Shown: positions 1 to 53,235, counted from the stretch's first letter. The stretch: DNA of 64,000 bases from an uncultured Gammaproteobacteria bacterium (GCA_964549165.1 CAZJUH010000002.1:1896-65895), one strand, 5' to 3'. Made by a program: numbers and translations. Notes: generated by a model not told the origin, from the letters alone.

Positions 1-302
1 TTCGCGACCGCAAAACTCTCGCTGAAGACGGCATGTTCAGTGTTGTTTTAATGGTCAACAAAGAAGCTGGTATTCTATTCAAAGAGCCGATAATCCTTTC
101 CCGGGGTTTTGTTTTTATGAAAGAAAATACCGATCTTATCGATTATCTAAAAGAAGAAGTTGTCAAAAAATTTAGTGAAGTTATCAGTAAGCCGGCTAAT
201 TTCGAATATATTCGTACTGAAATTCAGGCCTATCTTGAAACTATAATCAAAGATAAAACAGGTCGAGAGCCAATGGTTTTACCTCTTATTATTGAAGTTT
301 AA
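1..302 (+). CDS. rnj: Ribonuclease J, C-terminal fragment (5' end lies outside the window)
   Basis: The ORF is open from the window edge. The tail ...ISRGFVFMKENTDL...REPMVLPLIIEV resembles the RNase J C-terminal domain. Confidence 0.5.
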   Translation, partial: RDRKTLAEDGMFSVVLMVNKEAGILFKEPIILSRGFVFMKENTDLIDYLKEEVVKKFSEVISKPANFEYIRTEIQAYLETIIKDKTGREPMVLPLIIEV

Positions 303-321
303 AATAGTTTTTATTAAATAA

Positions 322-357
322 TATTGTAGAGACGCATCATGATGCGTCTCTACAATA
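322..357. repeat. Perfect 36-nt palindrome TATTGTAGAGACGCATCAT|GATGCGTCTCTACAATA. Hairpin, probably a terminator, and a member of the GAGACGCAT palindromic repeat family.
   Basis: Seen directly: an 18-bp perfect stem immediately 3' of the rnj stop. The same arms recur inside alaS at 6459-6553. Confidence 0.7.
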
Positions 358-455
358 AAAAATATATTTCTATATTTCATTTGATAAACTTAATTGCTCG
401 CCTTTGTCTGCGATTTATCCCAGGCAGGACGAGCATTTTTGTTGTTTTATGTAGA

Positions 456-484
456 TTGGAGACAAAGATGAGCTGAGGTATAAT
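456..484 (+). promoter_or_regulatory. Sigma70-like promoter TTGGAG-17-TATAAT. The -10 ends 5 nt before the ATG at 490, so the transcript is possibly leaderless.
   Basis: Consensus -10 TATAAT at 479-484, a 17-nt spacer, and a 4/6 match at -35. Confidence 0.35.
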
Positions 485-489
485 CCTTC

Positions 490-768
490 ATGCCACTTTT
501 TGTAAAAGAAACCTCATCTAAGGGAGAGATTTGTGAATATACTCTAAATGATTTAGAGTACTCTTTTGTTACTGATTCCAATCAGGAAGTACAATTAACT
601 TTAGTAAGTAATCCTAAATTAGGCGGAGAAATAGAAACAAGGGAAGGGAAAAAATTTCACCTACCGTCTCTTATGGAAAATTCAAATCATTTACTCAATG
701 CTATTGAGTTTCGTTTTTTTAACAAAAAGGTTGAAATTCATTCTCTTGTTAAAGATACTAAAATTTAG
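490..768 (+). CDS. Hypothetical protein (92 aa)
   Basis: ORF lies downstream of a consensus promoter. No recognisable family. Confidence 0.4.
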   Translation: MPLFVKETSSKGEICEYTLNDLEYSFVTDSNQEVQLTLVSNPKLGGEIETREGKKFHLPSLMENSNHLLNAIEFRFFNKKVEIHSLVKDTKI

Positions 769-794
769 TTTATTTTTTACTGTTAAAATAACTC

Positions 795-2216
795 ATGGCT
801 AAATCACAGTTAAAGGATTTCAATACCAACCTCTCAGAATGGTTTACTGATGTTATTTTAAAATCAGAGCTTGCCGATTATGCCCCAGTTAAGGGCTGCA
901 TGATTATTCGTCCTTACGGCTATGCTCTTTGGGAGGGGATTCAGCAATTTTTAGATAAATTAATTAAGGAAAAAGGTGTTAAAAATGCCTATTTTCCGCT
1001 TTTTATCCCCATGCACTATTTGCAAAAAGAAAAAGAGCATGTCGAGGGCTTTTCTCCACAGCTGGCGGTGGTCACTATTGCTGGCGGTGAAGAGTTGACT
1101 GAGAAATTAGCTATTCGTCCCACTTCTGAAACCATCATATACGATATGTATAAAAAGTGGACATCGTCATGGCGCGATCTTCCAGTTTTAATTAACCAAT
1201 GGTGTAATATTGTCCGCTGGGAAAAAAGAACTTATCTATTTTTGAGAACTTCTGAATTTTTATGGCAAGAGGGTCACTGTGCCCATCTGACTCATGAAGA
1301 TTCAAATGAGATGGTGATATGGGCCTTAGATGCTTACGAAAAAACCTATCACGAATTAATGGCTATGTACGGAATCAAAGGTAAAAAAAGTCAATCAGAA
1401 AAATTTCCCGGTGCTGGTGATACCTATACTTTTGAATGTATGATGCCAAACGGCAAGGCTCTTCAGGCTTGTACTTCTCACGATCTTGGTCAAAATTTTT
1501 CCAAATCATTTGACTGGACCGTTCAGGATAAAAATGGTGAAAAAGCTTATCCTTGGCAAAATTCCTGGGGTCTATCAACAAGGGCTATCGGAGGTTTAAT
1601 TATGGCTCATGGTGATGAAAACGGCCTTAAACTGCCATCTCAAATTGCCCCCACTCAAATAGTCATTGTCCCCATACCTGGTCACGAAAAAGCCTTAAAT
1701 AAGGCCCAGGAAATTTTTTCTGATCTTAAAAAACAATTTAGAGTCGAAATAGACCTTGTTGACGGCGAAACTGCCGGCTTCAAATTTAACAAATGGGAAT
1801 TAAAAGGTATCCCTCTCAGACTTGAAATCGGAGACCGTGATGTCGCCAGTGACTCTGTTATTATTACTCGTCGAGATACCAGTGAAAAAATTACGGTAAA
1901 AAATGAAGATTGTAGTCTGAAGATTGAAGATTTACTAAAAGAAATTCAAAATAATTTATTTAATATTCACAAAAAATTTACCGAAGATCACACTTTTTCC
2001 ATTGATTCTTATGATGAATTTAAAAAAATTATGGACTCTTCTCGTGGTTTTATCAAGGCTCATTGGTGTGAAGACCCTCAGTGTGAAGCCGAAATAAAAA
2101 AAGACACTAAAGCTACTACTCGCTGTTTACCTCTTGATGCTCCAGAGGAAGAGGGGAAATGTATTCATTGTGGTCAGCCCTCTCATCACCGCTGGCTCTT
2201 TGCTTTGTCTTACTAA
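795..2216 (+). CDS. proS: Prolyl-tRNA synthetase, archaeal/eukaryotic-type class II, with a C-terminal Zn-binding motif
   Basis: Class II aaRS motifs are present, and the C-terminal CxxC...CIHCG tail is typical of archaeal-type ProRS. Confidence 0.9.
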   Translation: MAKSQLKDFNTNLSEWFTDVILKSELADYAPVKGCMIIRPYGYALWEGIQQFLDKLIKEKGVKNAYFPLFIPMHYLQKEKEHVEGFSPQLAVVTIAGGEELTEKLAIRPTSETIIYDMYKKWTSSWRDLPVLINQWCNIVRWEKRTYLFLRTSEFLWQEGHCAHLTHEDSNEMVIWALDAYEKTYHELMAMYGIKGKKSQSEKFPGAGDTYTFECMMPNGKALQACTSHDLGQNFSKSFDWTVQDKNGEKAYPWQNSWGLSTRAIGGLIMAHGDENGLKLPSQIAPTQIVIVPIPGHEKALNKAQEIFSDLKKQFRVEIDLVDGETAGFKFNKWELKGIPLRLEIGDRDVASDSVIITRRDTSEKITVKNEDCSLKIEDLLKEIQNNLFNIHKKFTEDHTFSIDSYDEFKKIMDSSRGFIKAHWCEDPQCEAEIKKDTKATTRCLPLDAPEEEGKCIHCGQPSHHRWLFALSY

Positions 2217-2220
2217 TTTT

Positions 2221-2254
2221 TTTTAGATTTTAGAATTTAGATTTTAGATTTTTC
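2221..2254. repeat. Tandem heptamer array (TTTTAGA x4, ending TTTAGATTTTTCC) immediately upstream of ftsK
   Basis: Seen directly. Related arrays occur at 5312-5331, 22521-22553 and 50964-51003. Confidence 0.5.
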
Positions 2255-2277
2255 CATTTTTACTCTATACTGTATTT

Positions 2278-4416
2278 ATGCCCCGCGGACGCAAGAAAAA
2301 TCGAATTCTCCCTACCCTAAAACTTAAGCCAGATACTGTCAAGTCAATTTTCTTCATCTTCTTTTTAATTTTGGCCATACTATCAGTATTTTCATTTCTT
2401 CAACAGGGGAGTATTGCTTCCGATGTAAACTTAATTTTAACTAAATATTTTGGGTGGGGTGCAGTTATGGTTCCCTTTTTATTTCTCCTTATCTCTTTTC
2501 TTTTTACAAAAGTTAAATCAGCTCTTCGCGAAGCCAATGTCTTTTTTGGTTTTTGTATTATGTTTTTTGCTCTTCTGGGTCTTTTCAAACAAGGATTTTT
2601 GGGTGCCTTCTTTTGGGAACAATTTTTAGCTTTATTTTCCGAAGTACTTACCTTTATTATTTTCTTTTTTGCTCTGATAGTCGGTTTTGTCGTTCTTTTT
2701 GATACTAATGTGGCTCAAATTTTTAAATTTTTTGCTCATCTTTTTCAAATGATTAAAAGATATTCGGTTGGCCAAAGCAATAAACTAAAAGATAAAAAAG
2801 CCAGAGAAATGGCTAAAAACCCCATCTATCAATCAGAAATGAATACCTCCTCTAGTTCTGAATTAAATCTAAATCGAGATAAAGATGTTTCAAAATCATC
2901 GTCAAAGGCTGATTTTGGAGTAGTCAATATTCCTCCCGTTATCAAAAATTCTTCTCCACTGACCTCTTCTGGCAATCAGACTTGGGTTTATCCCTCACTT
3001 TCAATTTTTGATAATACTCCCGGTGCCAAAGCAGATCGGGGAGATGTTCGTAAAAATGCTCAAATTATTGAGACAACATTAGAATCTTTCGGTATTACTG
3101 CTCGCGTTGCCGAAGTAAACGATAGTCCTTCTGTAACTCAATATGCCCTCGAGGTTTCTCTGGGGACAAAACTAGCCAAAATACTTTCTTTAAGCAACGA
3201 TCTAGCCATGGCCCTGGCTGCTCCTGGTGGCCAAATCAGAGTCGAAGCTCCCATTCCTGGAAGATCTCTTGTTGGTATTGAAATGCCAAACCGTTCTCTT
3301 GAAGTTGTCCCAATCAGGGCAATTTTGGAATCAGATATCATGAAAAATGCCAAAAGCAAAATTTCAGTTCCTCTTGGTCTTGATGTGGCTGGTCAGCCTA
3401 GAATTGCTGATATTTCCAAAATGCCTCACGTTTTAATTGCCGGTCAAACCGGCTCCGGAAAATCAATTTGTATTAATTCCTGGATTTCAACCCTACTTTT
3501 TCGAGCTTCTCCTGATGAAGTTCGTCTGATTATGGTGGATCCAAAACGGGTTGAACTTTCGCAGTACAATGGCATTCCCCATTTACTTACTCCTGTTATC
3601 GTTGAGCCAGAAAAAGTTGTTTCTGCCTTAAAATGGGCTGTTAATGAAATGGAGCATCGTTATAAGCTTTTTACCGAAGTTGGGGCAAAAAATATTGAAG
3701 GTTACAACAACATGTCAGGTTTTCAAGCTATTCCCTATATTTTGATTGTGATTGATGAGCTGGCCGAAATCATGCTTTTTTCTCCCGCCGAAGTTGAAGA
3801 CAATATCTGTCGTATTGCTCAAATGGCCCGGGCCGTCGGCATTCATTTAGTTTTAGCCACCCAGCGGCCATCAGTCAATATTATTACCGGTCTAATCAAG
3901 GCTAATATTCCAACTCGCATTGCCTTTGCTGTTGCCTCAATGACCGATTCTCGGGTCGTATTAGATACTCCAGGTGCCGAAAAATTACTTGGTCGGGGTG
4001 ACATGCTTTATATTCCTCCTGACTTGGCCAAGCCCGTCAGAATTCAGGGCTGTTTTATTTCCGATAAAGAAGTAAATCGCCTAATTGATTTTTTGAAAAC
4101 TCAGCGCAGTGGTGATTACAACGATGAAATCACAAAGCAGCCAGTTAGTAGTCCCAATTCAATTAGTAAAAATATGATGGTCAGTGATGGTGAGGAGCGC
4201 GATGCTGTCTTTGACGATGCCGTTAAATTAATTCAAGATACTGGCAAAGCGTCTGCCTCTTTTATGCAACGTCATTTAAAGCTTGGTTATGCCCGCGCCG
4301 CTAGAGTTCTTGATGAACTTCAAGCGGCTGGTATCGTTGGCCCAGTCAATGGTGCTAAGCCTCGAGAAATTTTAATTCCCCATAAAAGTTCTTCCGATAA
4401 TAATTTGGAAGAATAA
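2278..4416 (+). CDS. ftsK: DNA translocase FtsK/SpoIIIE
   Basis: N-terminal TM segments, Walker A GQTGSGKS, and a C-terminal gamma/winged-helix domain. Confidence 0.9.
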   Translation: MPRGRKKNRILPTLKLKPDTVKSIFFIFFLILAILSVFSFLQQGSIASDVNLILTKYFGWGAVMVPFLFLLISFLFTKVKSALREANVFFGFCIMFFALLGLFKQGFLGAFFWEQFLALFSEVLTFIIFFFALIVGFVVLFDTNVAQIFKFFAHLFQMIKRYSVGQSNKLKDKKAREMAKNPIYQSEMNTSSSSELNLNRDKDVSKSSSKADFGVVNIPPVIKNSSPLTSSGNQTWVYPSLSIFDNTPGAKADRGDVRKNAQIIETTLESFGITARVAEVNDSPSVTQYALEVSLGTKLAKILSLSNDLAMALAAPGGQIRVEAPIPGRSLVGIEMPNRSLEVVPIRAILESDIMKNAKSKISVPLGLDVAGQPRIADISKMPHVLIAGQTGSGKSICINSWISTLLFRASPDEVRLIMVDPKRVELSQYNGIPHLLTPVIVEPEKVVSALKWAVNEMEHRYKLFTEVGAKNIEGYNNMSGFQAIPYILIVIDELAEIMLFSPAEVEDNICRIAQMARAVGIHLVLATQRPSVNIITGLIKANIPTRIAFAVASMTDSRVVLDTPGAEKLLGRGDMLYIPPDLAKPVRIQGCFISDKEVNRLIDFLKTQRSGDYNDEITKQPVSSPNSISKNMMVSDGEERDAVFDDAVKLIQDTGKASASFMQRHLKLGYARAARVLDELQAAGIVGPVNGAKPREILIPHKSSSDNNLEE

Positions 4417-4421
4417 TCAAT

Positions 4422-5018
4422 ATGAAACGTGCTTCAACTATTCTCGAGTCTGCTCGCCTCGACCGGGAAATTGATTTTACTGATATTTGTAAAAAAACAA
4501 AAATTCCACTTCGCTATTTAATCGCCTTCGAAAATGAAAATACTAAAGATTTTCCCGAGGAGCCTTATTGTTCCCTAATGGTCAAGGACTATGCTGAGTT
4601 TTTAGGTTTAAATGGGGAAGAGCTTTTATCTCTATTTCGTCGCGATTATGATCGGCATCATCCCAATGTTGCCAAAAGTCGCTCCTTGTTTTCTTTAACC
4701 CCTCAATTTAGTTTTACCTTTTTTATTATTCTTCTCTCTCTATTTTTTGGTCTTTATTTAATCTCTGAATATTTAAAATTCAATCGCCCGCCTCATTTAG
4801 AAGTAAATTGGCCGGAGAATATTTCCGAGTCTTCAATTAAAATTTCCGGAAAAACTGATCCTGAGTCCACTGTTAAGATAAATGATTCTCTGGTCCTTGT
4901 TGATCTTGAGGGGAATTTTACCAAAGAACTTCAAATTTCTACACCTGAGGCTAAAATTATCATCGAAGCTAAATCTCCAGCTGGCAAAGTTACGATTGAT
5001 GAAAAAGTCCTAAAATAG
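4422..5018 (+). CDS. RodZ-like HTH (XRE) membrane protein
   Basis: N-terminal HTH, a single TM segment and a C-terminal beta-rich domain. Confidence 0.45.
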   Translation: MKRASTILESARLDREIDFTDICKKTKIPLRYLIAFENENTKDFPEEPYCSLMVKDYAEFLGLNGEELLSLFRRDYDRHHPNVAKSRSLFSLTPQFSFTFFIILLSLFFGLYLISEYLKFNRPPHLEVNWPENISESSIKISGKTDPESTVKINDSLVLVDLEGNFTKELQISTPEAKIIIEAKSPAGKVTIDEKVLK

Positions 5019-5032
5019 TCTATACTATTCTC

Positions 5033-5278
5033 ATGGATATCAATCAAATCGTCATCATCATTTCACTTTTGTCTATTTCCACCGTTGTTGTTATTGTCGG
5101 GATCTATCTCATTAAGTTAATAAAAGATCTAAGAGTAACAGTGGGTGAAACCAATAAAATCATTTCTTCAGTTTCTCAGCCTCTTTCTTCTTTTTCTGAA
5201 TTTTTAATGGGTTTCAGAAACGGTTTTTCTCTTTTTAATTCTTTTTTCAATAAAGACAAAAAAGAAAAAAATAATTAA
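5033..5278 (+). CDS. Small hypothetical membrane protein
   Basis: The N-terminal half has a single TM helix. No homology is recognisable. Confidence 0.3.
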   Translation: MDINQIVIIISLLSISTVVVIVGIYLIKLIKDLRVTVGETNKIISSVSQPLSSFSEFLMGFRNGFSLFNSFFNKDKKEKNN

Positions 5279-5311
5279 TTAATTTTTATTTGTTATTTAT
5301 TAATTATTCGA

Positions 5312-5331
5312 CTTTAGACTTTAGAATTTAA
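5312..5331. repeat. Short heptamer array (CTTTAGA x2 followed by ATTTAAT) upstream of ORF 5339
   Basis: Seen directly. Confidence 0.35.
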
Positions 5332-5338
5332 TAAATTT

Positions 5339-5701
5339 ATGTCTTGTTGTAATGATAAAGATTGCGATTGTCATCAACATAGTAGTTTTATTTTTGGTTT
5401 GATTATCGGCTTAGTTATCGCTGCTGTCGTTGCCATTGTTGTCTATAAAAATAACCGTGAAGTCGTCCTTTTAAAATTAAAAAAACAAATTGAAAAATTT
5501 ATTTCGGCCATAGGTCGATCTGCCTCTGGCGGAAAACCAAAATCAGAAGAAATTATCGAATCATTTATTACCCCTAATGTACCGAGAAAAAAAATTATCA
5601 AAAATATAAAGAAAGACGTTGTTATTCCTAAAAACCTAATTATTGCCGACACAACCCCGAAATCAATTTCCTCCAAGCCAAGGAAAATGTTTAAAAAATA
5701 A
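5339..5701 (+). CDS. Hypothetical membrane-anchored Lys-rich protein with a Cys/His-rich N-terminus. It contains a half-copy of the TCCGCC-NNN-GGCGGA element (5519-5533), which encodes RSASGG.
   Basis: TM helix plus the repeat-derived peptide. Confidence 0.35.
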   Translation: MSCCNDKDCDCHQHSSFIFGLIIGLVIAAVVAIVVYKNNREVVLLKLKKQIEKFISAIGRSASGGKPKSEEIIESFITPNVPRKKIIKNIKKDVVIPKNLIIADTTPKSISSKPRKMFKK

Positions 5702-7528
5702 TTGGAGTTTCCCTGCTATAATTCCTCTATGAACGCCAGGCAGTTAAAAGACATTTTTGTCAACTTTTTTGTTTCAAAGGGCCATGTCGAAATTCCCTCC
5801 GCCTCTCTTATTCCCGAAAACGATCCCACCACTCTTTTTATCTCTGCCGGCATGCATCCTTTAGTTCCTTATCTCTTGGGGCAGTCACACCCATTCGGAA
5901 AACGTTTAGTTAATGTTCAAAAATGTTTAAGAACCGGCGATATTGATGAAGTTGGCGACACCTTTCATCACACTTTTTTTGAAATGCTAGGCAACTGGTC
6001 ACTTGGTGATTATTTTAAAGAAGAAATGATTGCCATGTCTTATGAATTTTTAATCAAAATATTAAATTTAGACAAAAATAATCTCGAAGTAACCTGTTTT
6101 GCGGGTAATCAGTCTTCCGAAAAAGACGAAATTAGTGCCAGTAATTGGAAAAAATGTGGTATTCCAAAAAATAAAATAAAATTTATTACTGACAATTGGT
6201 GGGGTCCAGCTGGTACCACCGGTCCTTGTGGTCCGGACAGCGAAATGTTTTTTAATGGTCTTGAAATTTGGAATGACGTTTTTATGGAATTTAATAAAAA
6301 TGCCGACGGAACTTTTTCTAAATTAAAACAACAAAATGTTGATACTGGCATGGGAGTCGAAAGGACCACTGCTGTTTTATCCGGTCTTTCAGATAATTAT
6401 TTGACTCCTATTTGGCAGTCAATTATCAAAAAAATTGAAGAAATTTCGGGGAAATCATATGTAGAGACGAACTGCGTGCGTCTCTCTCAAACACAAAACG
6501 AAAATAACACATCACAAAACATTAAAGGAGACGCATACAATGCGTCTCTACAAATCCAAAAACCATTTCGTATTATTGCTGACCACATTCGTGCTGCTGT
6601 TTTTATCATTGCCGATGGAGTTGAGCCAAGTAACAAAGAAGCCGGATATGTTCTTCGCCGCCTTATTCGCCGGGCCATCCGTCAAGGAAAATTAATCGGA
6701 ATCGAAAATAATTTTCTAAAAATTGTCGCTCTGGTCGTTTTAGACAATCAAGATAATTATGCTGGAATTTATCCAGAACTTGATTTAAATAAAAATAAAA
6801 TATTAGAAACTTTAGAAGCCGAAGAAATTAGATTTCGTCGTACTCTTAACAAAGGTCTCGGTGAAATAACTAAACTAATTGATCGACAAAAAAATGTTTC
6901 TGGCAAACAGGCTTTTGATTTATATCAGTCTTTTGGTTTCCCGGTCGAAATGATTGCTGAAGAATTAAAAAAGAATAATTTATCCTTAGATTTGGCCGAA
7001 TTTAATCGTCTTAAAGATGAGCATCAAAAACAATCTCAAACTCTTTCGGCGGGCAAATTTAAATCAGGTCTTGCCGATCACAGTGAGATTATCACCAAAT
7101 ATCACACCGCCACTCATCTTTTACATGCTGCCCTGCGACAAGTTTTGGGCAAGCATGTTGAGCAGTCTGGTTCAAATATAACTGCTGAGAGGTTGCGTTT
7201 TGACTTTTTCCACCTTGAAAAAGTTTCCGATCTTGAGTTAAAAGAAATTGAAAAACTCATCAATGAACAAATAAATTTAAAATTGCCAGTTACAGTGGAG
7301 TCGATGAAATTTACTGATGTTAAAAAATCTGGGGCTCTGGCCTTTTTTGGCGCTAAATATCCGGAAATTGTTACTGTCTATATCATTGGTGATCCCAAAA
7401 AATATTTTTCCAAAGAAGTCTGTACCGGTCCCCACGTTGATAATACCGGTAAACTCGGAATTTTTGAGATTCAAAAAGAAGAATCCGCGGGTAGTGGCAA
7501 GCGCCGGATTTATGCTATTCTTAAGTAA
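5702..7528 (+). CDS. alaS: Alanyl-tRNA synthetase, ending after the editing domain (no C-Ala domain). The start is probably at 5729.
   Basis: N-terminal catalytic-domain motifs (FHHTFFEMLGNWSLGDYFK) and editing-domain HxxxH (HTATHLLHAAL). Only 608 aa, ending KRRIYAILK. Confidence 0.85.
   Translation: MEFPCYNSSMNARQLKDIFVNFFVSKGHVEIPSASLIPENDPTTLFISAGMHPLVPYLLGQSHPFGKRLVNVQKCLRTGDIDEVGDTFHHTFFEMLGNWSLGDYFKEEMIAMSYEFLIKILNLDKNNLEVTCFAGNQSSEKDEISASNWKKCGIPKNKIKFITDNWWGPAGTTGPCGPDSEMFFNGLEIWNDVFMEFNKNADGTFSKLKQQNVDTGMGVERTTAVLSGLSDNYLTPIWQSIIKKIEEISGKSYVETNCVRLSQTQNENNTSQNIKGDAYNASLQIQKPFRIIADHIRAAVFIIADGVEPSNKEAGYVLRRLIRRAIRQGKLIGIENNFLKIVALVVLDNQDNYAGIYPELDLNKNKILETLEAEEIRFRRTLNKGLGEITKLIDRQKNVSGKQAFDLYQSFGFPVEMIAEELKKNNLSLDLAEFNRLKDEHQKQSQTLSAGKFKSGLADHSEIITKYHTATHLLHAALRQVLGKHVEQSGSNITAERLRFDFFHLEKVSDLELKEIEKLINEQINLKLPVTVESMKFTDVKKSGALAFFGAKYPEIVTVYIIGDPKKYFSKEVCTGPHVDNTGKLGIFEIQKEESAGSGKRRIYAILK
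6459..6553. repeat. Composite in-frame insertion in alaS made of two GAGACG...CGTCTC hairpins. Hairpin A is arms 6463-6469 with 6479-6485. Hairpin B is 6528-6536 with 6540-6548. They flank a 36-nt AC-rich core.
   Basis: Seen directly. The arms match the intergenic palindrome at 322-357 (TGTAGAGACGCAT / ATGCGTCTCTACAA). The encoded segment VETNCVRLSQTQNENNTSQNIKGDAYNASLQIQ lies where AlaS normally has a short linker before R[IV]IADH. Confidence 0.6.
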
Positions 7529-43183: not shown

Positions 43184-43195
43184 AATTTTAACCAT

Positions 43196-43666
43196 ATGGC
43201 AACCACAAAAACAAATACCACTCCTGTCGTTACCGCTCCTGTCTCTGCCAAAGGCGGATCCGCCTCAGGCGGAAAAAAAACTAAATCTCTTCCCAAGGCT
43301 AAAAAAGTTGTTAAAAGTCTGGCCGAAGGTCGACTTTACATTCAGTCAACCTTCAACAATACTATCGTCACTATTACCGATATTAAGGGCAATACTCTCG
43401 CCTGGTCAAGTGCTGGTCAGTGTGGCTTTAAGGGTTCTCGTAAATCGACTCCCTATGCCGCCACCACTGCTATCGAAAAGGCTCTTGAGGCTGTCAGACC
43501 AATTGGAATTAAAAAATTAGCAGTTTATCTAAAAGGACCAGGTACCGGCCGAGATGCCGCTCTTCGTTTTCTTCGCGCCAAGCGAGATTTTGAAGTCGAT
43601 CTCATTGCCGATGTCACCCCCATTCCTCACAACGGCCCCAGGCCTCCAAAGGCCCGCCGAGTTTAA
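43196..43666 (+). CDS. rpsK: 30S ribosomal protein S11, with an N-terminal extension that carries a repeat-element insertion
   Basis: S11 core from [14 protein letters not shown] onwards. The extension contains [10 protein letters not shown]. Confidence 0.9.
43247..43273. repeat. TCCGCC-NNN-GGCGGA double-hairpin element centred on GGATCC, inserted in-frame in rpsK (encodes AKGGSASGG)
   Basis: Seen directly. Near-identical copies at 45640-45666 and 51003-51032, with a half-copy at 5519-5533. Confidence 0.65.
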
Positions 43667-44322: not shown

Positions 44323-45243
44323 ATGATCGATACTAGTCGCTTTCATATTAAAACCATTAAACAAACTTCCACTTATGGCAAGTTTGAGCTTACTCCACTT
44401 GTTGGAGGTTTAGGTCACACCCTCGGTAATAGTCTTCGTCGAATTCTTTTAATCACTATTCCCGGTGCGGCAATCACTCACATTAAAATCGATGGTGCCA
44501 CTCATTTATTTACCACTTTACCTGGGGTAAAAGAAGATCTCGTCGAAATTTCGCTCAATCTAAAAAAGATTAAATTTGCCTATGCCAAGGAAGAACCTAC
44601 GATATTAATTTTAGACAAAAAAGGCAAGGGTATTGTTACTGCCGCTGATATTGCTGATAGCTCTGTCTGTAAGGTTTCTAATCCAGATCAGGTCATCGCT
44701 ACTCTAACCGACACCAAAGCCCACCTTAAAATTGAAATGACGGTTGAGCGTGGGGTTGGCTATTCTCTGGCTCGTGAACAAAAAACTGATATTGTTGGTG
44801 AAATTATCCTCGATGCCACCTTTACTCCCGTTTTAAAAGCCAATTATACTGTTGAGCCCACTCGTCTTGGTAAAAAGAGCAATTACGATAAATTAACCAT
44901 GGAGATTTGGACCGATGCTTCAATTGAGCCTCTCACTGCCCTAAAAATGGCCGCCAAAGATTTAATTAATGCCCTTGACCAGATTGTTGATACTCGTGAA
45001 TTCGAAGACGAAGTCATCACCCTCGACTCTATGCCCATCAACCAAATGGCTGAAATCTCAGTTGAAGAAATTGAATTACCTCTTCGGGTGACCAACGCCC
45101 TCAAAAAAGCTGATTATTCGACCATTAACGATTTAGTTAAGGCCGGTAGAGCCGATGTCAGTAAAGCCAAAAACGTCGGTGAAAAATCATTAAGAATTAT
45201 TGATGCCTGGCTTGAGGAAAAGGGCTTTTCCTGGAATAAATAA
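44323..45243 (+). CDS. rpoA: DNA-directed RNA polymerase alpha subunit
   Basis: N-terminal domain plus C-terminal domain. Confidence 0.95.
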   Translation: MIDTSRFHIKTIKQTSTYGKFELTPLVGGLGHTLGNSLRRILLITIPGAAITHIKIDGATHLFTTLPGVKEDLVEISLNLKKIKFAYAKEEPTILILDKKGKGIVTAADIADSSVCKVSNPDQVIATLTDTKAHLKIEMTVERGVGYSLAREQKTDIVGEIILDATFTPVLKANYTVEPTRLGKKSNYDKLTMEIWTDASIEPLTALKMAAKDLINALDQIVDTREFEDEVITLDSMPINQMAEISVEEIELPLRVTNALKKADYSTINDLVKAGRADVSKAKNVGEKSLRIIDAWLEEKGFSWNK

Positions 45244-45244
45244 G

Positions 45245-45727
45245 ATGAGACATCGAATTGCAGGCTATCATTTAGGTCGGACCATTAATCAAAGAAAAAA
45301 TCTGTATAGATCTCAGCTGCGCTCTTTGTTTACTTACGGTTTTATCAATACGACCGTTACCAAAGCCAAATCTATCCTGCCTCTGGCAGAAAAAATTGCC
45401 CTCGCCGCCGTCAAGGCCGACCTAAATTCTCGTCGCTATATTTTTACCTTTTTTCAAGATCGAAATATCGTAAATAGGATAGTAACAGCTTTTTCTACTA
45501 CTTTTCCCGGCCAGACTCAAAACTTTACTCAGTTAAAAAATGTAAAATTCCGGCAAGGGGATAATGCTTTAATTGTTCGATTAAGTTTTATCAAAGAGGT
45601 AAATAGTCTCCCCGTCATTAAAGAAAAAGAAAAAAAATCCGCCAAAGGCGGATCCGCCTCAGGCGGAGAAGTTAAAAAGAAAGTTCCTGCCAAGAAAGCA
45701 GTCGCAAAGAAGGAGACTAAAAAATGA
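45245..45727 (+). CDS. rplQ: 50S ribosomal protein L17, with a Lys-rich C-terminal extension of about 40 aa that carries the repeat element
   Basis: L17 core from MRHRIAGYHLGRT. The tail reads [17 protein letters not shown]. Confidence 0.9.
   Translation: MRHRIAGYHLGRTINQRKNLYRSQLRSLFTYGFINTTVTKAKSILPLAEKIALAAVKADLNSRRYIFTFFQDRNIVNRIVTAFSTTFPGQTQNFTQLKNVKFRQGDNALIVRLSFIKEVNSLPVIKEKEKKSAKGGSASGGEVKKKVPAKKAVAKKETKK
45640..45666. repeat. TCCGCC-NNN-GGCGGA double-hairpin element inserted in-frame in the rplQ 3' extension
   Basis: Seen directly. GCCAAAGGCGGATCCGCCTCAGGCGGA is identical to the rpsK copy. Confidence 0.65.
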
Positions 45728-50963: not shown

Positions 50964-51003
50964 TTTTAGGTTTTAGAATTTAGGCTTTAGGTTTTAGATT
51001 TTT
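50964..51003. repeat. Heptamer array TTTTAGGTTTTAGAATTTAGGCTTTAGGTTTTAGATTTTTCC, abutting the GGATCC palindrome
   Basis: Seen directly. Confidence 0.5.
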
Positions 51004-51659
51004 CCGCCAGAGGCGGATCCGCCTTTGGCTGAAGATTTTTTTTCAATTAGTTGTTTTCCAAAGCTAACGCAAAGCTGTTCGAGATCTAAAAGATGAAAAC
51101 CTTTTTTAGAAATCGCCCTTTCCATCGCCTCATTAACTTTTGTAGGTTCTTTGCAGTTAATATGCTCCGCATCGACTTCTGGATTTACGGTTTTAATCAG
51201 TTCTACCGGTATCAAAGCGATACTAGGGACACCCTTTGGAGTCGATTTTGTTTTTGTCCCCTTTGGAGTCGTCGGGCTACTTTGACCTGTCGTCAGAGAA
51301 TAGAGGTGGTTATTGGCCACGATTACGGTAATATCGATATTTAATCTGGCCGCGGCTATTAAATGACTAAGTCCTTCGCCATAAATTCCCCCGTCTCCAC
51401 CAATGGCAATTACATTTAACTCGGGATTAGCTAGTTTTATTCCCACCGCTGTCGGGATACATCGACCATGGAGGGAATGAACCCCCCAAGCCTTTACAAA
51501 ATCAGCCATATTACCGATACAGCCAATATCATAGACAATTACCGTCTTGTCTTGATCTAAATTCATTTTTGCCAAAGTATTTTGAAGTCCTGCGTAAATA
51601 ACATAATCTTCACATCCCGGACACCAGGTGGGGATAACCCCTGATCGCCAATTAGTCAT
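50994..51659 (-). CDS. korB: 2-oxoacid:ferredoxin oxidoreductase beta subunit (TPP-binding)
   Basis: CPGCGD-like motif (WCPGCED) and the TPP-binding GDGG block. Confidence 0.8.
   Translation of the reverse strand: MTNWRSGVIPTWCPGCEDYVIYAGLQNTLAKMNLDQDKTVIVYDIGCIGNMADFVKAWGVHSLHGRCIPTAVGIKLANPELNVIAIGGDGGIYGEGLSHLIAAARLNIDITVIVANNHLYSLTTGQSSPTTPKGTKTKSTPKGVPSIALIPVELIKTVNPEVDAEHINCKEPTKVNEAMERAISKKGFHLLDLEQLCVSFGKQLIEKKSSAKGGSASGGKI
51003..51032. repeat. TCCGCC-NNN-GGCGGA double-hairpin element at the 3' end of korB (minus strand). It is read in the same codon frame as the other copies and encodes [12 protein letters not shown].
   Basis: Seen directly. Its reverse complement differs by 1 nt from the rpsK/rplQ copies. 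Confidence 0.65.
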
Positions 51660-53235
51660 TGAGAGCCTCCTTTATTTCTTCCGGAAAGAATGGTCTTCCG
51701 TCATATTTTAATATTTTTTTAGTAAATTCAACTGTCATTTGTGATTTTAGCAGTGTTTCGAGCTGTGTCGTTGCATTATTTTCAATCAATATTTTTTCAT
51801 CAAAAGCATTAATTATTTGACCTATTTTAGGGTCAATTGGCCACATTCCCTTGATTTGCAAAAAGGCGTAATCTTCTTTATTATTCATTTCTTTTAAGGC
51901 CTCTAAAATTGCTCCCTTGCTTGAGCCCCAGGCGACAATAATTTTTTTGGCTTTATCGCTTCCATAAAGATTTACTTTGGGCATCGCCGTCAAAATATCT
52001 TTTATCTTATTTAATCTTAAATCAACGGCTTTTTTACTTTCCATTGCTCCTTCAACCGAAAATCCTTCATTATTATGTTCATAGCTATTATATAGTTTTA
52101 TTTTTTGCCTTTTTCCAGGGATTGCTTTTAGACTTTCAATTTTTTCTTCTTTTTCTTTATCAAAATTTTTTGTATTAGCACTGGACTCCGATAAGTTTTT
52201 ATCAGAAAGCATAATCACGGGAATATCAAATTTATTGGCCAGATTTAGTGCCAATTTACTTAATTCATAGGCTTCTTCATGGTCACCCGCGGCAAAGACT
52301 ATTTTAGGAAATTCACCGTGACCACTATGCACCGCAAAAAGTAAATCTCCTTGACTCGTCCAGGTTGGCATCCCGGTGGCTGGACCTGGCCGCTGGGAGA
52401 GGAAATAGACCACTCCTAGTCCTGCCTGAGCGTTGAAGCTGATTGTTTCTGTCATGAGCGCAAAACCACCACCTGAGGTGCCTACGGCCGCCCTAGCTCC
52501 TGCCATTGAAGCGCCTGAGGCAATTGAGGCTACGGCAATCTCATCTTCGGGATGAATTACCTTGATTTTAAATTCGTCAATATTTTTGGCTAAAAAGTGG
52601 AGTAAGCCTGAAGCTGGAGTCATGGGGTAGGCCACGAACATCTGAAGACCCGCTTTATACAGCCCCCACCCAGCCGCTTCGTTGCCGTCAACGATGATCA
52701 TTTTTTCTGCATTATTACCTTTATCTATAGGTAATTTTTGACAATTTTTCTCAGCCCAGTTATATCCTATTTCAAATGCTTTTAAATTGATAGAATCACA
52801 ACCAAAAGCCTCTTCAATATTTTTTTTAGCAAAATTCTTATCTAGATTAAGTAAAAAAGCAAGTAGCCCCAGGGAAATAGTATTGGTATAGAGATTTCCC
52901 CCAAGCTCACTACACATTTCTTTAAAAGGAATATCTATTTTACCGTCATTATCGGCAAAGACGAATGTTTCTTTTTTAAATTCGTTCTCGTGTTCTTGCC
53001 AGTGTCCAGCAACGAGTGATATAAAAATATCTAATTTTTTGTGAACACAGTAGACCTTATCAACCGAAAAACTAACCTGATAGGTATTGTGTCCTCCTCG
53101 GACTAAAGATGGATATTCCGAATAATCCTGGAGAAAATATCCGCTTTCATTTAACATTTTGGCAAGTAAGAGACCTGCCGACTTAATTCCTGTTCCTGCC
53201 GGCCCAGCAATTTTGATTGTCCATACTTTATTCAT
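51652..53235 (-). CDS. korA: 2-oxoacid:ferredoxin oxidoreductase alpha subunit, fused with an N-terminal gamma domain
   Basis: N-terminal gamma-like IAGPAGTGI, then the alpha-subunit core. Coupled to korB by an 8-nt overlap. Confidence 0.75.
   Translation of the reverse strand: MNKVWTIKIAGPAGTGIKSAGLLLAKMLNESGYFLQDYSEYPSLVRGGHNTYQVSFSVDKVYCVHKKLDIFISLVAGHWQEHENEFKKETFVFADNDGKIDIPFKEMCSELGGNLYTNTISLGLLAFLLNLDKNFAKKNIEEAFGCDSINLKAFEIGYNWAEKNCQKLPIDKGNNAEKMIIVDGNEAAGWGLYKAGLQMFVAYPMTPASGLLHFLAKNIDEFKIKVIHPEDEIAVASIASGASMAGARAAVGTSGGGFALMTETISFNAQAGLGVVYFLSQRPGPATGMPTWTSQGDLLFAVHSGHGEFPKIVFAAGDHEEAYELSKLALNLANKFDIPVIMLSDKNLSESSANTKNFDKEKEEKIESLKAIPGKRQKIKLYNSYEHNNEGFSVEGAMESKKAVDLRLNKIKDILTAMPKVNLYGSDKAKKIIVAWGSSKGAILEALKEMNNKEDYAFLQIKGMWPIDPKIGQIINAFDEKILIENNATTQLETLLKSQMTVEFTKKILKYDGRPFFPEEIKEALND

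What the first reader, a model, noticed from the sequence alone, without database searches (positions are those of the whole stretch)
322..6553. GAGACGCAT/ATGCGTCTC palindromic element: an intergenic 36-nt perfect hairpin, plus a two-hairpin composite inserted in-frame in alaS
Seen directly, 322-357 is a perfect 18-bp-stem palindrome, TATTGTAGAGACGCATCAT|GATGCGTCTCTACAATA, just 3' of rnj. Inside alaS, 6459-6490 (TGTAGAGACG...CGTCTCTC) and 6528-6553 (GAGACGCAT-ACA-ATGCGTCTCTACAA) carry the same arms and flank a 36-nt AC-rich core. The reading frame is maintained and encodes about 25-33 extra residues (VETNCVRLSQTQNENNTSQNIKGDAYNASLQIQ). By established knowledge of AlaS, this is where canonical enzymes have only about 10 residues between the G-x-x-Y segment and R[IV]IADH. 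The structure resembles a MITE-like element with terminal inverted repeats that has landed in a surface loop of an essential aaRS.
Basis: partly seen in the sequence, partly recalled or inferred. Interest (0 to 1): 0.8.

Follow-up and report, generated by a model that had tools for sequence, protein, structure and literature searches.

The report
REP palindromes inserted in-frame in alaS
A small mobile DNA hairpin of the REP type sits once between genes and once, as a two-hairpin unit, in-frame inside the essential alanyl-tRNA synthetase gene of a tiny "candidate phyla radiation" bacterium. This is a known kind of event (like the Rickettsia palindromic elements) in a new host, a new repeat family and a repeatedly hit protein loop.

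Summary
322-357 is a perfect 18+18 palindrome. alaS (5729-7528) carries a 91-nt, two-hairpin unit (6461-6551) with the same arms. It is in-frame, has no stop codon and adds a net 29 residues. The closest orthologues (84% and 79% identity) and A. aeolicus AlaRS lack it.

It is best read as a GTAG-headed REP family rather than a classical MITE. The unit is 28 nt, GTAGAGACGCA-loop-TGCGTCTCTAC. The alaS copy is a dimer with the GTAG heads outside, which is REPIN-like.

The family occurs in many phyla and in IMG/VR contigs. RAYT-type tyrosine transposase genes co-occur with it, often carrying the hairpin in-frame inside their own ORF. One such gene lies on a Shapirobacteria-like contig, between rnj and proS, where the window has its intergenic copy. 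No RAYT lies in the window, which holds only two loci.

Among the 120 closest AlaS proteins, six carry this element at the same loop, and each one's nearest relative has an empty site. Other apparently hairpin-derived insert types hit the same loop. Related doublets sit in-frame in CysRS, MiaA and a recombinase.

Verdict: a real feature, a new member of a known kind (intragenic REP/RPE-like). Interest is moderate.

The parts
1..302 (+). 3' end of rnj (RNase J), with its stop codon at 300-302. The intergenic REP begins 19 nt downstream.
   Evidence: ORF 33..302. Window 255-306 matches the rnj 3' end of L198. That ORF in L198 is 67-75% identical to genes carrying the RNase_J_C Pfam domain in L190, L126 and L129.
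322..357 (.). Intergenic REP singleton. The 28-nt core GTAGAGACGCATCATGATGCGTCTCTAC lies at 326-353. Four more bases on each side extend it to a perfect 36-nt palindrome.
   Evidence: I4, 100% complementary. (-24 kcal/mol, z = -10.7). (CM R1, 48 bits, E = 1.5e-15). The unit boundaries GTAG..CTAC come from 80 viral-contig copies whose flanks are not conserved.
5729..7528 (+). alaS, a short-form alanyl-tRNA synthetase of 599 aa. It is full length and open.
   Evidence: (Pfam PF01411 and PF07973 on the identical protein P0001).
6461..6551 (+). REP dimer of 91 nt with the GTAG heads outside (REPIN-like), inserted directly after the Tyr244 codon (6458-6460).
   Evidence: filled versus empty sites. 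(folds as one long hairpin). (the same heterodimer at other loci in low-GC metagenome contigs).
6461..6486 (+). Hairpin 1, GTAGAGACG-AACTGCGTG-CGTCTCTC. It carries the GTAG head and has decayed: 6-7 bp of stem against 8 bp in P0044 and other copies.
   Evidence: 16.7 bits, E = 0.0012. (weak alone, z = -1.9). (alignment with intact copies GTAGAGACGCACTGCGTGCGTCTC).
6487..6526 (+). AC-rich spacer of the dimer. It encodes SQTQNENNTSQNIK.
   Evidence: The spacer is 73% identical to that of P0044. Related spacers (TCTCAAACACAA...AAATAATAATCAAA) occur in L193, L208 and L217.
6527..6551 (+). Hairpin 2, GGAGACGCAT-ACA-ATGCGTCTCTAC. It carries the GTAG head on the minus strand.
   Evidence: (-14.8 kcal/mol, z = -6.7).. 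The exact 24-mer is found in 35 metagenome stretches.
6461..6559 (+). Codons 245-277, the extra peptide VETNCVRLSQTQNENNTSQNIKGDAYNASLQIQ. The net gain is 29 residues relative to P0002 and P0003.
   Evidence: no counterpart in 1RIQ for residues 247-273; pLDDT below 50 for 247-269.

Best explanation
**What it is.** Both loci are copies of one family of repetitive extragenic palindromes (REPs) with a GTAG head. The unit is a 28-nt hairpin, GTAGAGACGCA-(4-6 nt)-TGCGTCTCTAC. Its basal 9 bp are invariant and its apical pairs co-vary.

**The intergenic copy (326-353).** It is a singleton lying 19-23 nt after the rnj stop codon. In a related Shapirobacteria-like genome, the same locus holds a REP array followed by a RAYT gene.

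**The alaS copy (6461-6551).** It is a dimer of two different REP hairpins with the GTAG heads outward and a 41-43 nt AC-rich spacer. This is an 'HH dimer', or REPIN-like doublet, and it can fold as two small hairpins or as one long one. It landed directly after the Tyr244 codon. After small adjustments of the flanks it adds a net 87 nt. It has no stop codon, so it is presumably translated as 29 extra residues. These lie in the linker between the aminoacylation domain and the first helix of the tRNA-recognition domain.

**How it works (inferred).** A RAYT-type HUH/Y1 tyrosine transposase recognises the GTAG-headed hairpin on single-stranded DNA and copies it to new sites.
- Insertions that break genes are purged.
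- Insertions that fall in the open VET...ASLQ frame in a tolerant surface loop persist.
- In this window no RAYT is present. The copies are therefore either served in trans from elsewhere in the genome or are fossils.

**Shown versus inferred.**
- Shown: family identity, the in-frame insertion, the loop position, patchy recurrence at the same site, and co-occurrence with RAYT genes, including in a Shapirobacteria-like contig.
- Inferred: translation of the insert, mobilisation by RAYT, and neutrality of the insert.
For: **Same arms at both loci.**

**Insertion against empty sites.** Shown at the protein and DNA level and against solved AlaRS. An independent assembly is identical.

**A real family.**
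- 51 of 120 genome loci holding the 14-mer TTGTAGAGACGCAT also carry the palindromic partner. They come from Bacteroidota, Ignavibacteriota, Zixibacteria, Brocadiaceae, Desulfobacterota and Patescibacteria.
- 80 exact hairpins occur in IMG/VR contigs, with unconserved flanks.
- The apical stem pairs co-vary: 59 cells changed on both sides against 18 in shuffles, 95% of cells paired.

**Dimer architecture.** About 20 of 35 metagenome stretches holding the hairpin-2 24-mer are GTAG-outside doublets with spacers of roughly 12-120 nt. The same heterodimer, some copies with a related AC-rich spacer, appears at several unrelated loci. This matches the published description of HH dimers and of intragenic REP dimers encoding 20-30 aa (PMC3733652).

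**RAYT link.**
- RAYT-like ORFs overlap or adjoin the hairpin in 4 of 51 genome loci and 5 of 35 metagenome loci.
- The best NCBIfam hit is NF047646, REP-associated tyrosine transposase (E from 1e-11 to 1e-16). Pfam Y1_Tnp also hits. HUH and Tyr motifs are visible by eye.
- At least 7,980 homologues were found, and JGI names many of them RayT. 92 of the top 120 carry VETxxxxASL in-frame.

**Presence in this clade.** L198 reads rnj - REP array - RAYT (doublet inside) - proS - ftsK. It is syntenic with the window and 62-75% identical to Shapirobacteria-like loci.

**Independent gains.**
- Each of the six AlaS proteins with the element has an empty-site nearest neighbour.
- The flanking 40 codons follow the gene tree.
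- The window and P0044 doublets are 82% identical, while third codon positions of the two host genes are 50% identical.

**Other in-frame copies.** CysRS in a Patescibacteria MAG, MiaA, and a tyrosine recombinase.
Against: - **Low copy number here.** Only two loci (three hairpins) lie in 64 kb, even with a covariance model run with filters off. The high copy number that is the classical hallmark of REPs is not shown for this genome.
- **No RAYT or other Y1 transposase in the window.** tblastn, a family HMM and two recalled probes with positive controls all failed to find one.
- **RAYT hits are weak by curated standards.** They fall below NCBIfam's cut-off (43-61 bits against 80), and two of the three first ORFs tested fall below Pfam's cut-off.
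- **The GTAG is not an unpaired tag.** In the singleton it is base-paired with CTAC, unlike the unpaired tag in the published definition.
- **The insertion is not clean.** The net gain is 87 nt for a 91-nt unit, and 24 nt for the 28-nt single hairpin of P0052. No empty allele of the same species is available, so the junctions are inferred.
- **Junction similarity across alleles.** Five of six filled alleles share the left junction TCN-TAY|GTAGAG. This could mean one old insertion with many losses, very short gene conversion, or target preference.
- **Translation is not shown.**
- **In vivo transposition is unproven in general.** To my knowledge, REP transposition by a RAYT has not been demonstrated in vivo for any system.
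Confidence: 0.78

Rival explanations
1. It is a classical MITE. That is, a deletion derivative of an insertion sequence, with terminal inverted repeats TGTAGAGACGCAT, moved by a DDE transposase and making target-site duplications.
For: The outer arms of the alaS unit are inverted repeats (I1: 28 nt, 82%). At 91-103 nt the unit is in the MITE size range.
Against: - No direct repeat flanks any of the six alaS copies or the intergenic copy (read from the sequences).
- The autonomous-looking unit is only 28 nt.
- The inner arms pair with the outer arms as two separate GTAG-headed hairpins.
- The only transposase family enriched next to or around copies is RAYT/Y1.
Confidence: 0.04
2. There was one ancient insertion in the AlaS loop of an ancestral Shapirobacterium. 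Repeated precise or imprecise loss followed, and/or short-tract homologous recombination spread it between alaS alleles. Repeated transposition into the same site did not occur.
For: - Five of six filled alleles share the junction Ser-Tyr|VET (TCN TAY|GTAGAG), and all share CTAC|AA on the right.
- The window and P0044 doublets have exactly the same length of 91 nt.
Against: - Each filled allele's nearest neighbours are empty. This would need many independent losses.
- The hairpins differ in stem and loop variant: a doublet; THDRA; TLRAT; TRLIT.
- The flanking 40 codons follow the gene tree, with no sign of a shared recombination tract.
- The doublets are 82% identical where neutral sites of the host genes are saturated, at 44-50%. 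This argues against vertical descent, unless constraint on the insert is strong.
Confidence: 0.12
3. The extra segment is a selected, lineage-specific functional module of AlaRS, or a selected mRNA structure that regulates alaS translation. Its resemblance to the intergenic palindrome is secondary.
For: - The length is conserved between the window and P0044, and all genuine in-gene copies use the same VET...ASLQ frame.
- A -31 kcal/mol hairpin inside an ORF could slow ribosomes.
Against: - The closest relatives do without it.
- The same loop carries unrelated insert types in other lineages. I read these as hairpin-derived mainly from the peptide patterns. At the DNA level, one LPCQGEV allele shows clear small hairpins and one VIASE allele shows only weaker structure.
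- The same element is found in unrelated proteins and in intergenic DNA across phyla.
- Hairpin 1 of the window copy is decaying.
Confidence: 0.05
4. The intergenic copy at 322-357 acts mainly as an RNA element for rnj: a 3' stabiliser or partial terminator. This does not exclude a REP origin.
For: - It lies 19 nt after the rnj stop codon in a co-directional gene row and is very stable.
- REPs are typically found downstream of ORFs and are thought to act this way (PMC3733652).
Against: - No T-run follows on the + strand. The only terminator-like call is on the minus strand, where no gene ends.
- There are no expression data.
Confidence: 0.25

Closest known systems
GTAG-tagged REPs and their intragenic dimers (Di Nocera, De Gregorio & Rocco 2013, BMC Genomics 14:522, PMC3733652; e.g. 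Opitutus terrae uvrA)
   Same: - A short palindrome with a terminal GTAG.
- Dimers with the GTAG outside and 20-100 bp spacers.
- Singles and dimers found inside known genes, where they encode 20-30 residues.
- Association with RAYT genes.
   Different: - The text search found no GAGAC, GTCTC or GTAGAG string in that paper. However, its family consensus sequences are in figures that are not held, so identity with one of its 24 families cannot be excluded.
- Here the GTAG is itself base-paired in singletons.
- The host is a CPR/Patescibacteria lineage, which is not among the phyla listed there.
- Copy number in the window is low.
REPIN-RAYT systems of Pseudomonas and Enterobacteria (Bertels & Rainey 2011, PMC3116915; Bertels et al. 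2017, PMC5581495)
   Same: - Two inverted REPs plus a spacer that can fold into one long hairpin.
- Doublets with a conserved spacer at several loci.
- A Y1/HUH RAYT gene next to REPs.
   Different: - Those REPINs number in the hundreds per genome and are essentially extragenic. Their REPs flank the RAYT gene.
- Here the hairpin or doublet commonly lies in-frame inside the RAYT ORF (92 of the top 120 homologues).
- The same basal stem sequence is shared across phyla.
- The RAYT-like proteins score below the curated family cut-off.
Rickettsia palindromic elements (RPE; Ogata et al. 2000, as cited in PMC3733652)
   Same: Palindromic repeats inserted in-frame in genes for functional, often essential, proteins of a small-genome, host-dependent bacterium. 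They are presumed to be tolerated in surface loops.
   Different: - RPEs are a different sequence family. According to PMC3733652, RPE-4 and RPE-6 are CGTC-tagged.
- RPE-1 elements are longer palindromic insertions, by my recollection 100-150 bp.
- No dedicated transposase is known for them.
E. coli REP/BIME with TnpA-REP (Messing et al. 2012, PMC3479197; Corneloup et al. 2021, PMC8266576)
   Same: A GTAG-headed hairpin is the recognition element of a domesticated HUH/Y1 transposase that acts on single-stranded DNA.
   Different: No biochemistry exists for this family. The stem sequence and the RAYT clade are different.
Bacterial MITEs (e.g. Correia/NEMIS, RUP, ERIC)
   Same: Small, non-coding, inverted-repeat-bounded mobile DNA that can land inside genes.
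   Different: MITEs are 70-300 bp with 15-30 bp TIRs, make target-site duplications and derive from DDE-type IS. None of this is seen here.

Membership tests
REP (GTAG-tagged repetitive extragenic palindromes) | A short (20-40 nt) palindromic stem-loop | tested here: met
   The core is 28 nt, and 36 nt with its extension.
REP (GTAG-tagged repetitive extragenic palindromes) | A conserved GTAG tetranucleotide at one end of the hairpin (unpaired in the published definition) | tested here: inconclusive
   GTAG is invariant at the 5' end in 41 of 41 variants and in both window loci. In singletons it pairs with CTAC. In the dimer hairpins only GT is unpaired.
REP (GTAG-tagged repetitive extragenic palindromes) | Many copies dispersed in the genome | tested here: inconclusive
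   The 64 kb holds only 2 loci and 3 hairpins, and the rest of the genome is not available. At the family level there are dozens to hundreds of copies across genomes, metagenomes and viral contigs. Some 20-25 kb contigs carry several copies each.
REP (GTAG-tagged repetitive extragenic palindromes) | Association with a RAYT (REP-associated tyrosine transposase) gene | tested here: met
   Met at the family level and within the clade. RAYT-like ORFs lie at 4 of 51 genome loci and 5 of 35 metagenome loci, including the Shapirobacteria-like contig L198. Not met inside the window.
REP (GTAG-tagged repetitive extragenic palindromes) | Dimers in inverted orientation with 20-100 bp spacers | tested here: met
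   The alaS unit has a 41-43 nt spacer. About 20 further doublets were found.
REPIN | Two inverted REPs plus a spacer that fold into one long hairpin and recur as a unit at different loci | tested here: met
   The long-hairpin fold is the minimum-energy structure. The same heterodimer occurs in L193, L198, L208 (twice), L211 and L217, some copies with a related spacer.
REPIN | A population of near-identical copies within one genome, served by a single-copy RAYT flanked by REPINs | not testable with these tools
   Only 64 kb of the source genome is readable. L198 shows a REP array 5' of a RAYT, with a doublet inside the gene.
MITE | Target-site duplication flanking the element | tested here: not met
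   The junctions read TAT|GTAG...CTAC|AAATCC. There is no direct repeat in any of the six alaS copies or in the intergenic copy (read).
MITE | 70-300 bp, with 15-30 bp TIRs matching the ends of a DDE-type IS | tested here: not met
   The unit is 28 nt. No IS with these ends was seen. The only enriched neighbouring enzyme is a Y1 transposase.
Rickettsia palindromic elements (RPE) | In-frame insertion of a palindromic repeat in genes for functional proteins | tested here: met
   Seen in alaS, cysS, and miaA and a recombinase. This shows that it works like an RPE.
Rickettsia palindromic elements (RPE) | Sequence membership in RPE-1 to RPE-8 (CGTC-tagged for RPE-4 and RPE-6) | not tested
   No RPE sequence was compared here. 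The head is GTAG and the hosts are not Rickettsiales, so membership is unlikely (PMC3733652).
Rfam RNA families | A match to any curated covariance model | tested here: not met
   Nothing was found at either locus at E up to 1.

The most novel reading that the evidence does not exclude
Two linked readings are not excluded by the evidence.

(i) The Tyr244/R-I-I-A-D-H loop of Shapirobacteria AlaRS is a genuinely targeted insertion hot spot, not merely a tolerant loop.
- At least four different apparently hairpin-derived insert types occupy it: GTAG 'VET..SLQ', 'LPCQGEV..DGGV', 'VIASE..IATS' and 'RPVKGGG'.
- Nearly all real in-gene copies of the GTAG element use one reading frame.
- This would point to a structure- or sequence-directed insertion mechanism, or to reuse of the hairpin or peptide.

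(ii) This REP family travels together with its RAYT as one unit, because the hairpin lies inside the transposase ORF.
- That would explain why the same basal stem is found from Bacteroidota to CPR bacteria and in viral contigs.
- It would contrast with the prevailing picture of vertically inherited, lineage-specific REPIN-RAYT pairs.
Probability: 0.25. Interest if true: 0.75.

Novelty: new member of a known kind. Interest (0 to 1): 0.5.

Why it matters
In-frame palindromic insertions in essential genes are a textbook curiosity of Rickettsia, and have been catalogued for a few REP-rich free-living bacteria. This finding adds several points.

- **A new host group.** The same process operates in ultra-small CPR/Patescibacteria genomes. 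It hits tRNA-related housekeeping enzymes (AlaRS, CysRS, MiaA), and it hits the same AlaRS loop repeatedly.
- **Practical use for annotation.** Length variation and 'odd' low-complexity segments in CPR proteins can come from mobile hairpins. VET..ASLQ-type peptides are a recognisable signature.
- **A system for studying REP spread.** The pair of a 28-nt hairpin and a roughly 180-aa RAYT that often carries the hairpin inside its own gene offers a compact system for testing how REPs are recognised and spread.
- **A natural experiment in loop tolerance.** It shows how well an essential aminoacyl-tRNA synthetase tolerates loop insertions.

Tried and rejected
- **Rfam, E-value mode, on 1-8000.** Only a chance miRNA hit at 386-449, and nothing at either locus.
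- **Full-text search for the arm sequences.** Only primers in unrelated papers.
- **Full-text search for CPR/Patescibacteria together with REP, REPIN or RAYT.** No paper combining them appeared among the top-ranked results.
- **Unbiased clustering of ORFs near the hairpins.**
  - The largest cluster ('UvrA') was just heterogeneous ABC ATPases, and I dropped it.
  - The three-member cluster turned out to be the RAYT-like family.
- **Search for a Y1 transposase in the window and in CPR loci.** I used tblastn, a family HMM with --max, and two probe sequences recalled from memory (IS200 TnpA and E. coli RAYT). These probes served as leads only, and the RAYT probe recovered the positive controls. 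Nothing was found.
- **Test for a recombination tract around the insert.** The flanks follow the gene tree.
- **Comparison of window ORF 490-768 with the small ORF at the same place in L128, and with NCBIfam.** No similarity.
- **Cluster look-up for organism names of the AlaS proteins.** No names were returned. The Shapirobacteria assignment therefore rests on the names of 70-73% identical AlaS homologues.
- **AlphaFold model.** Only mediocre: mean pLDDT 67.6, with the N-terminal 20-89 unresolved. I used it only for the local statement that residues 247-269 are low-confidence between two helices, and ran no fold search.
- **Intrinsic-terminator reading of the intergenic hairpin.** No T-tract on the coding strand.

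Full report
**1.

- Positions 322-357 form a perfect 18+18 palindrome, TATTGTAGAGACGCATCA|TGATGCGTCTCTACAATA. It starts 19 nt after the stop codon of the ORF ending at 302. As RNA it folds at -24 kcal/mol, z = -10.7.
- The 9-mer GAGACGCAT occurs four times in the window against 0.18 expected.
- The alaS ORF (5729-7528, 599 aa) carries two hairpins. The first is GTAGAGACG-aactgcgtg-CGTCTC(TC) at 6461-6486. The second is (G)GAGACGCAT-aca-ATGCGTCTCTAC at 6527-6551.
- The minimum-energy fold of the whole unit is one long hairpin, in which the outer arms pair with each other and so do the inner arms (-31.2 kcal/mol, z = -7.5).
- A covariance model built from 41 hairpin variants and run without filters finds exactly these three hairpins in the 64 kb. 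The next-best matches have E above 4.

**2. It is an insertion**

- The AlaS protein matches homologues end to end. Sources name several homologues at about 70-73% identity as Candidatus Shapirobacteria. The organism is therefore most likely a member of that CPR/Patescibacteria group; this is an inference.
- The two closest orthologues are P0002 (84% identity) and P0003 (79%). They have 7 residues between the conserved Tyr and R-I-I-A-D-H, where this protein has 36. The net gain is 29 aa, or 87 nt.
- Against A. aeolicus AlaRS (1RIQ), the HMMER alignment breaks into two pieces. Query 2-246 matches chain 4-259, and query 274-435 matches chain 261-424. Residues 247-273 have no counterpart.
- The AlphaFold2 model is of only moderate quality (mean pLDDT 67.6). 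Residues 247-269 have pLDDT below 50 and lie between a confident helix (227-240) and the long helix that contains R-I-I-A-D-H (267-295).
- An independent Logan assembly of the same organism has an identical alaS, insert included. It differs from the window at 15 of 10,048 nt overall. The insert is therefore not an assembly artefact.

**3. What the element is**

*A widespread family.*
In 51 of these, the reverse-complement arm follows within a few bases.
- The hosts are Bacteroidota, Ignavibacteriota, Zixibacteria, Brocadiaceae, Desulfobacterota, Gammaproteobacteria and two Patescibacteria MAGs (L008, L076).
- IMG/VR contigs hold 80 exact copies of GTAGAGACGCA-N-TGCGTCTCTAC, up to several per contig. 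Their flanks are not conserved, which fixes the unit as the 28-nt GTAG...CTAC palindrome.
- Across 41 distinct variants the basal nine pairs are invariant. The apical pairs co-vary: 59 cells changed on both sides against 18.3 in shuffles, and 95% of cells paired.

*It matches REPs.*
- A short palindrome headed by GTAG is the defining look of REPs.
- The published survey of GTAG- and CGTC-tagged REPs describes dimers with the GTAG termini outside ('HH') and 20-100 bp spacers. It also describes intragenic singles and dimers that encode 20-30 residues (PMC3733652).
- The alaS unit fits that description exactly.
- Rfam has no model for it.

**4. The doublet is itself a dispersed unit**

- The exact 24-mer of hairpin 2 occurs in 35 metagenome stretches. 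About 20 of these are GTAG-outside doublets.
- In low-GC contigs the same heterodimer recurs at different loci: L193, L198 (twice), L208 (twice), L211 and L217. The partner hairpin is GTAGAGACGCACTGCGTGCGTCTC. Some copies have a related AC-rich spacer, TCTCAAACACAA...AAATAATAATCAAA.
- Several copies lie in-frame in real genes:
  - MiaA/IPP transferase (L202, L203, L210);
  - the N-terminal SAM-like domain of a tyrosine recombinase (L193, L208);
  - CysRS of a Patescibacteria MAG (L008, peptide IVETHCYASKMSTETHVNASLQ).

**5. The likely mobilising enzyme**

*How it was found.*
- Unbiased clustering of ORFs near the hairpins gave one specific family of about 180 aa, with an M-P-N-H-x-H-G (HUH) motif and a C-terminal Y-I-x-x-N-P motif.
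- Its only NCBIfam hit is NF047646, REP-associated tyrosine transposase. E-values run from 1e-11 to 1e-16, but the scores are below the curated cut-off. Pfam gives Y1_Tnp.
- A profile search found at least 7,980 homologues. JGI calls many of them 'REP element-mobilizing transposase RayT'.

*The hairpin sits inside the gene.*
- In 92 of the 120 best hits, the hairpin lies in-frame inside the RAYT ORF as VETxxxxASL[QHR]. It usually sits about 15 residues after the HUH motif, and sometimes about 35 residues before it.
- This count is biased upwards, because the query contained that peptide.

*How often RAYT and REP co-occur.*
- Such genes overlap or adjoin the REP in 4 of 51 genome loci and 5 of 35 metagenome loci.

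*Presence in this clade.*
- Contig L198 (GC 0.32) has the order rnj 3' end - ORF - duplicated rnj 3' end - REP array (1391-1578) - RAYT (1622-2278, with the doublet inside at 1925-2066) - proS - ftsK.
- Its RNase J, ProRS and FtsK are 62-75% identical to those of Shapirobacteria-like loci that share the window's gene order.
- So this clade does encode the enzyme. The window's intergenic palindrome lies at the very junction (just after rnj) where that relative has its REP array and RAYT.
- The window itself has no RAYT or other Y1 transposase.

**6. Recurrence at one loop**

*Insert types among the 120 closest AlaS proteins.*

| Insert type at the Tyr / R-I-I-A-D-H loop | Number of proteins |
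|---|---|
| None (short loop; 7-10 residues in nearly all, 11 in P0049) | 85 |
| GTAG element ('VET..SLQ') | 6 |
| 'LPCQGEV..DGGV' | 9 counted by the classifier; the loop listing shows 11 |
| 'VIASE..IATS' | 4 |
| 'RPVKGGG..' | 3 counted by the classifier; the loop listing shows 4 |
| Non-palindromic 'QCWVD' segment | 13 |

- The six with the GTAG element are the window protein and P0044 (doublets), and P0052, P0073, P0108 and P0112 (singles with three different stem/loop variants).
- I read the LPCQGEV, VIASE and RPVKGGG types as hairpin-derived mainly from their peptide patterns. At the DNA level, one LPCQGEV allele shows two clear small GC-rich hairpins. One VIASE allele shows only weaker structure and contains CGTCATTGCGAG.

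*Evidence on independent gains.*
- For each of the six GTAG-bearing proteins, the nearest neighbour with the loop masked is an empty-site protein.
- The 40 codons on either side follow the gene tree.
- The window and P0044 doublets are both 91 nt long and 82% identical. The two host genes are only 50% identical at third codon positions.
- Several independent gains, or transfers of the element alone, are therefore more parsimonious than one old insertion with many losses.
- However, the shared left junction TCN-TAY|GTAGAG in five of six alleles keeps three alternatives alive: target preference, very short conversion tracts, or common origin.

*The insertions are not clean.*
- The window shows a net gain of 87 nt for a 91-nt unit. 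P0052 shows 24 nt for a 28-nt hairpin. Some flanking bases were evidently lost or changed to restore the frame.

**7. Mechanism, with the status of each step**

- Shown: family identity, the in-frame insertion, its position in a loop, the patchy distribution, and co-occurrence with RAYT.
- Inferred from established knowledge of TnpA-REP/RAYT and the IS200/IS605 family: the GTAG-headed hairpin is recognised on single-stranded DNA by an HUH/Y1 enzyme and copied without target duplication.
- Inferred: selection removes disruptive copies. One of the three frames through GTAG is closed by TAG, and the surviving in-gene copies use the V-E-T frame. The insert is translated and tolerated.
- The intergenic copy may additionally stabilise the rnj 3' end, but it lacks a T-tract.

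**8. Comparison and novelty**

- It works like the Rickettsia RPEs and like the intragenic GTAG/CGTC REP dimers already catalogued (PMC3733652).
- It is organised like a REPIN (PMC3116915).
- Membership in the REP superfamily is supported on four features: palindrome size, the GTAG head, dimer architecture and the RAYT link. It is unproven on copy number in this genome. It deviates in that the GTAG is base-paired.
- It fails the MITE criteria: no target duplication, a 28-nt unit, and no DDE IS.
- I found no paper linking CPR bacteria with REP, REPIN or RAYT in the held library.
- I therefore rate it a new member of a known kind, of moderate interest. Two side observations could raise its value if confirmed: the multi-family hot spot in AlaRS, and REPs embedded in RAYT ORFs across phyla.

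Noticed in passing
window 43244-43273, 45638-45667, 51003-51032, 5519-5533, 45376-45390: A second palindromic repeat family, TCCGCC-NNN-GGCGGA. It mostly occurs as tandem pairs (TCCGCCAAAGGCGGATCCGCCTCAGGCGGA) lying in-frame in ORFs, where it encodes [11 protein letters not shown] or SASGGK. The ORFs are 43184..43663 (+), 45194..45724 (+), 50997..51671 (-) and 5339..5701 (+).
   Followed up: partly
L061, L070, L103, L001, L198, L217, L212, L201; proteins P0121-P0240: RAYT-like tyrosine transposase genes carry the GTAGAGACGCA hairpin, or a doublet, in-frame inside their own ORF. It lies about 15 residues after the HUH motif or about 35 residues before it. 92 of the 120 best homologues show VETxxxxASL. 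I found no mention of this arrangement in the REPIN/RAYT papers I read.
   Followed up: partly
AlaS homologues P0008, P0012, P0014, P0015, P0018, P0029, P0030, P0037, P0043, P0099, P0101, P0107, P0113, P0118-P0120; loci L128:10796-10838 and L129:10835-10860: The same AlaS loop carries unrelated insert types in other Shapirobacteria-like lineages: 'LPCQGEV..DGGV', 'VIASEAKQS..IATS' (which contains CGTCATTGCGAG, reminiscent of CGTC-tagged REPs) and 'RPVKGGGSDEIGDGGF'. At the DNA level one LPCQGEV allele shows two small GC-rich hairpins, and one VIASE allele shows weaker structure. P0120 also has an extra 'SSLRGGTT' segment at a second site (columns 436-443).
   Followed up: partly
all genuine in-gene copies (AlaS x6, CysRS, MiaA, recombinase, RAYT, L088 antiporter, L096, L106): Nearly all copies inside recognisable genes are read in the V-E-T...A-S-L-Q frame. 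The other open frame (x-R-D-A...C-V-S-T) is hardly used, although only one of the three frames is closed by TAG. This is unexplained.
   Followed up: no
window 386-484: A long imperfect hairpin (arms 396-417 and 452-473) lies between the REP and ORF 490-768. It folds at -32.1 kcal/mol, z = -4.1 (I7, 89). A promoter-like site lies at 457-484, matching 10 of 12 positions. Rfam gives only a chance miRNA hit.
   Followed up: partly
window 303-794, compared with L126:4909-4917, L128:4836-5154, L129:2168-2921 and L198:543-2291: The rnj-proS interval is highly variable among syntenic relatives.
- L126: 8 nt.
- L128: an 81-aa ORF.
- L129: a flavodoxin-like gene.
- L198: an ORF, a duplicated rnj 3' end, a REP array and a RAYT.
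- Window: the REP, a structured region and a 92-aa ORF with no detectable relatives.

The ProRS type also differs: 473 aa with ProRS-C_1 (Pfam-annotated in the syntenic L128, whose ProRS is also 473 aa; the window's is 473 aa by ORF length) against about 565 aa with an editing domain.
   Followed up: partly
IMG/VR contigs, e.g. L133/L142/L177 (UViG_3300030005_000010), L153/L160 (UViG_3300028650_000022), L138/L165/L174 (UViG_3300028772_000064): Predicted viral contigs of about 20-25 kb carry several (about 4-9 in total) exact copies of the 28-nt hairpin (loop variants AAAATCTT, AAGATTTT and others). No RAYT gene lies in the fetched stretches.
   Followed up: no
L211:5149-5345: A Shapirobacteria-like contig has three GTAG-family hairpins immediately upstream of alaS. 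It also has a different GTAG-headed palindrome, GTAGGAACACGCCATGGCGTGTTCCTAC. Its AlaS loop carries the 'RPVKGGG' insert.
   Followed up: no
window 2221-2252 and 5310-5330: Short heptamer arrays occur in two intergenic regions: TTTTAGA x4.6 downstream of proS, and GACTTTA x3 upstream of ORF 5339.
   Followed up: no
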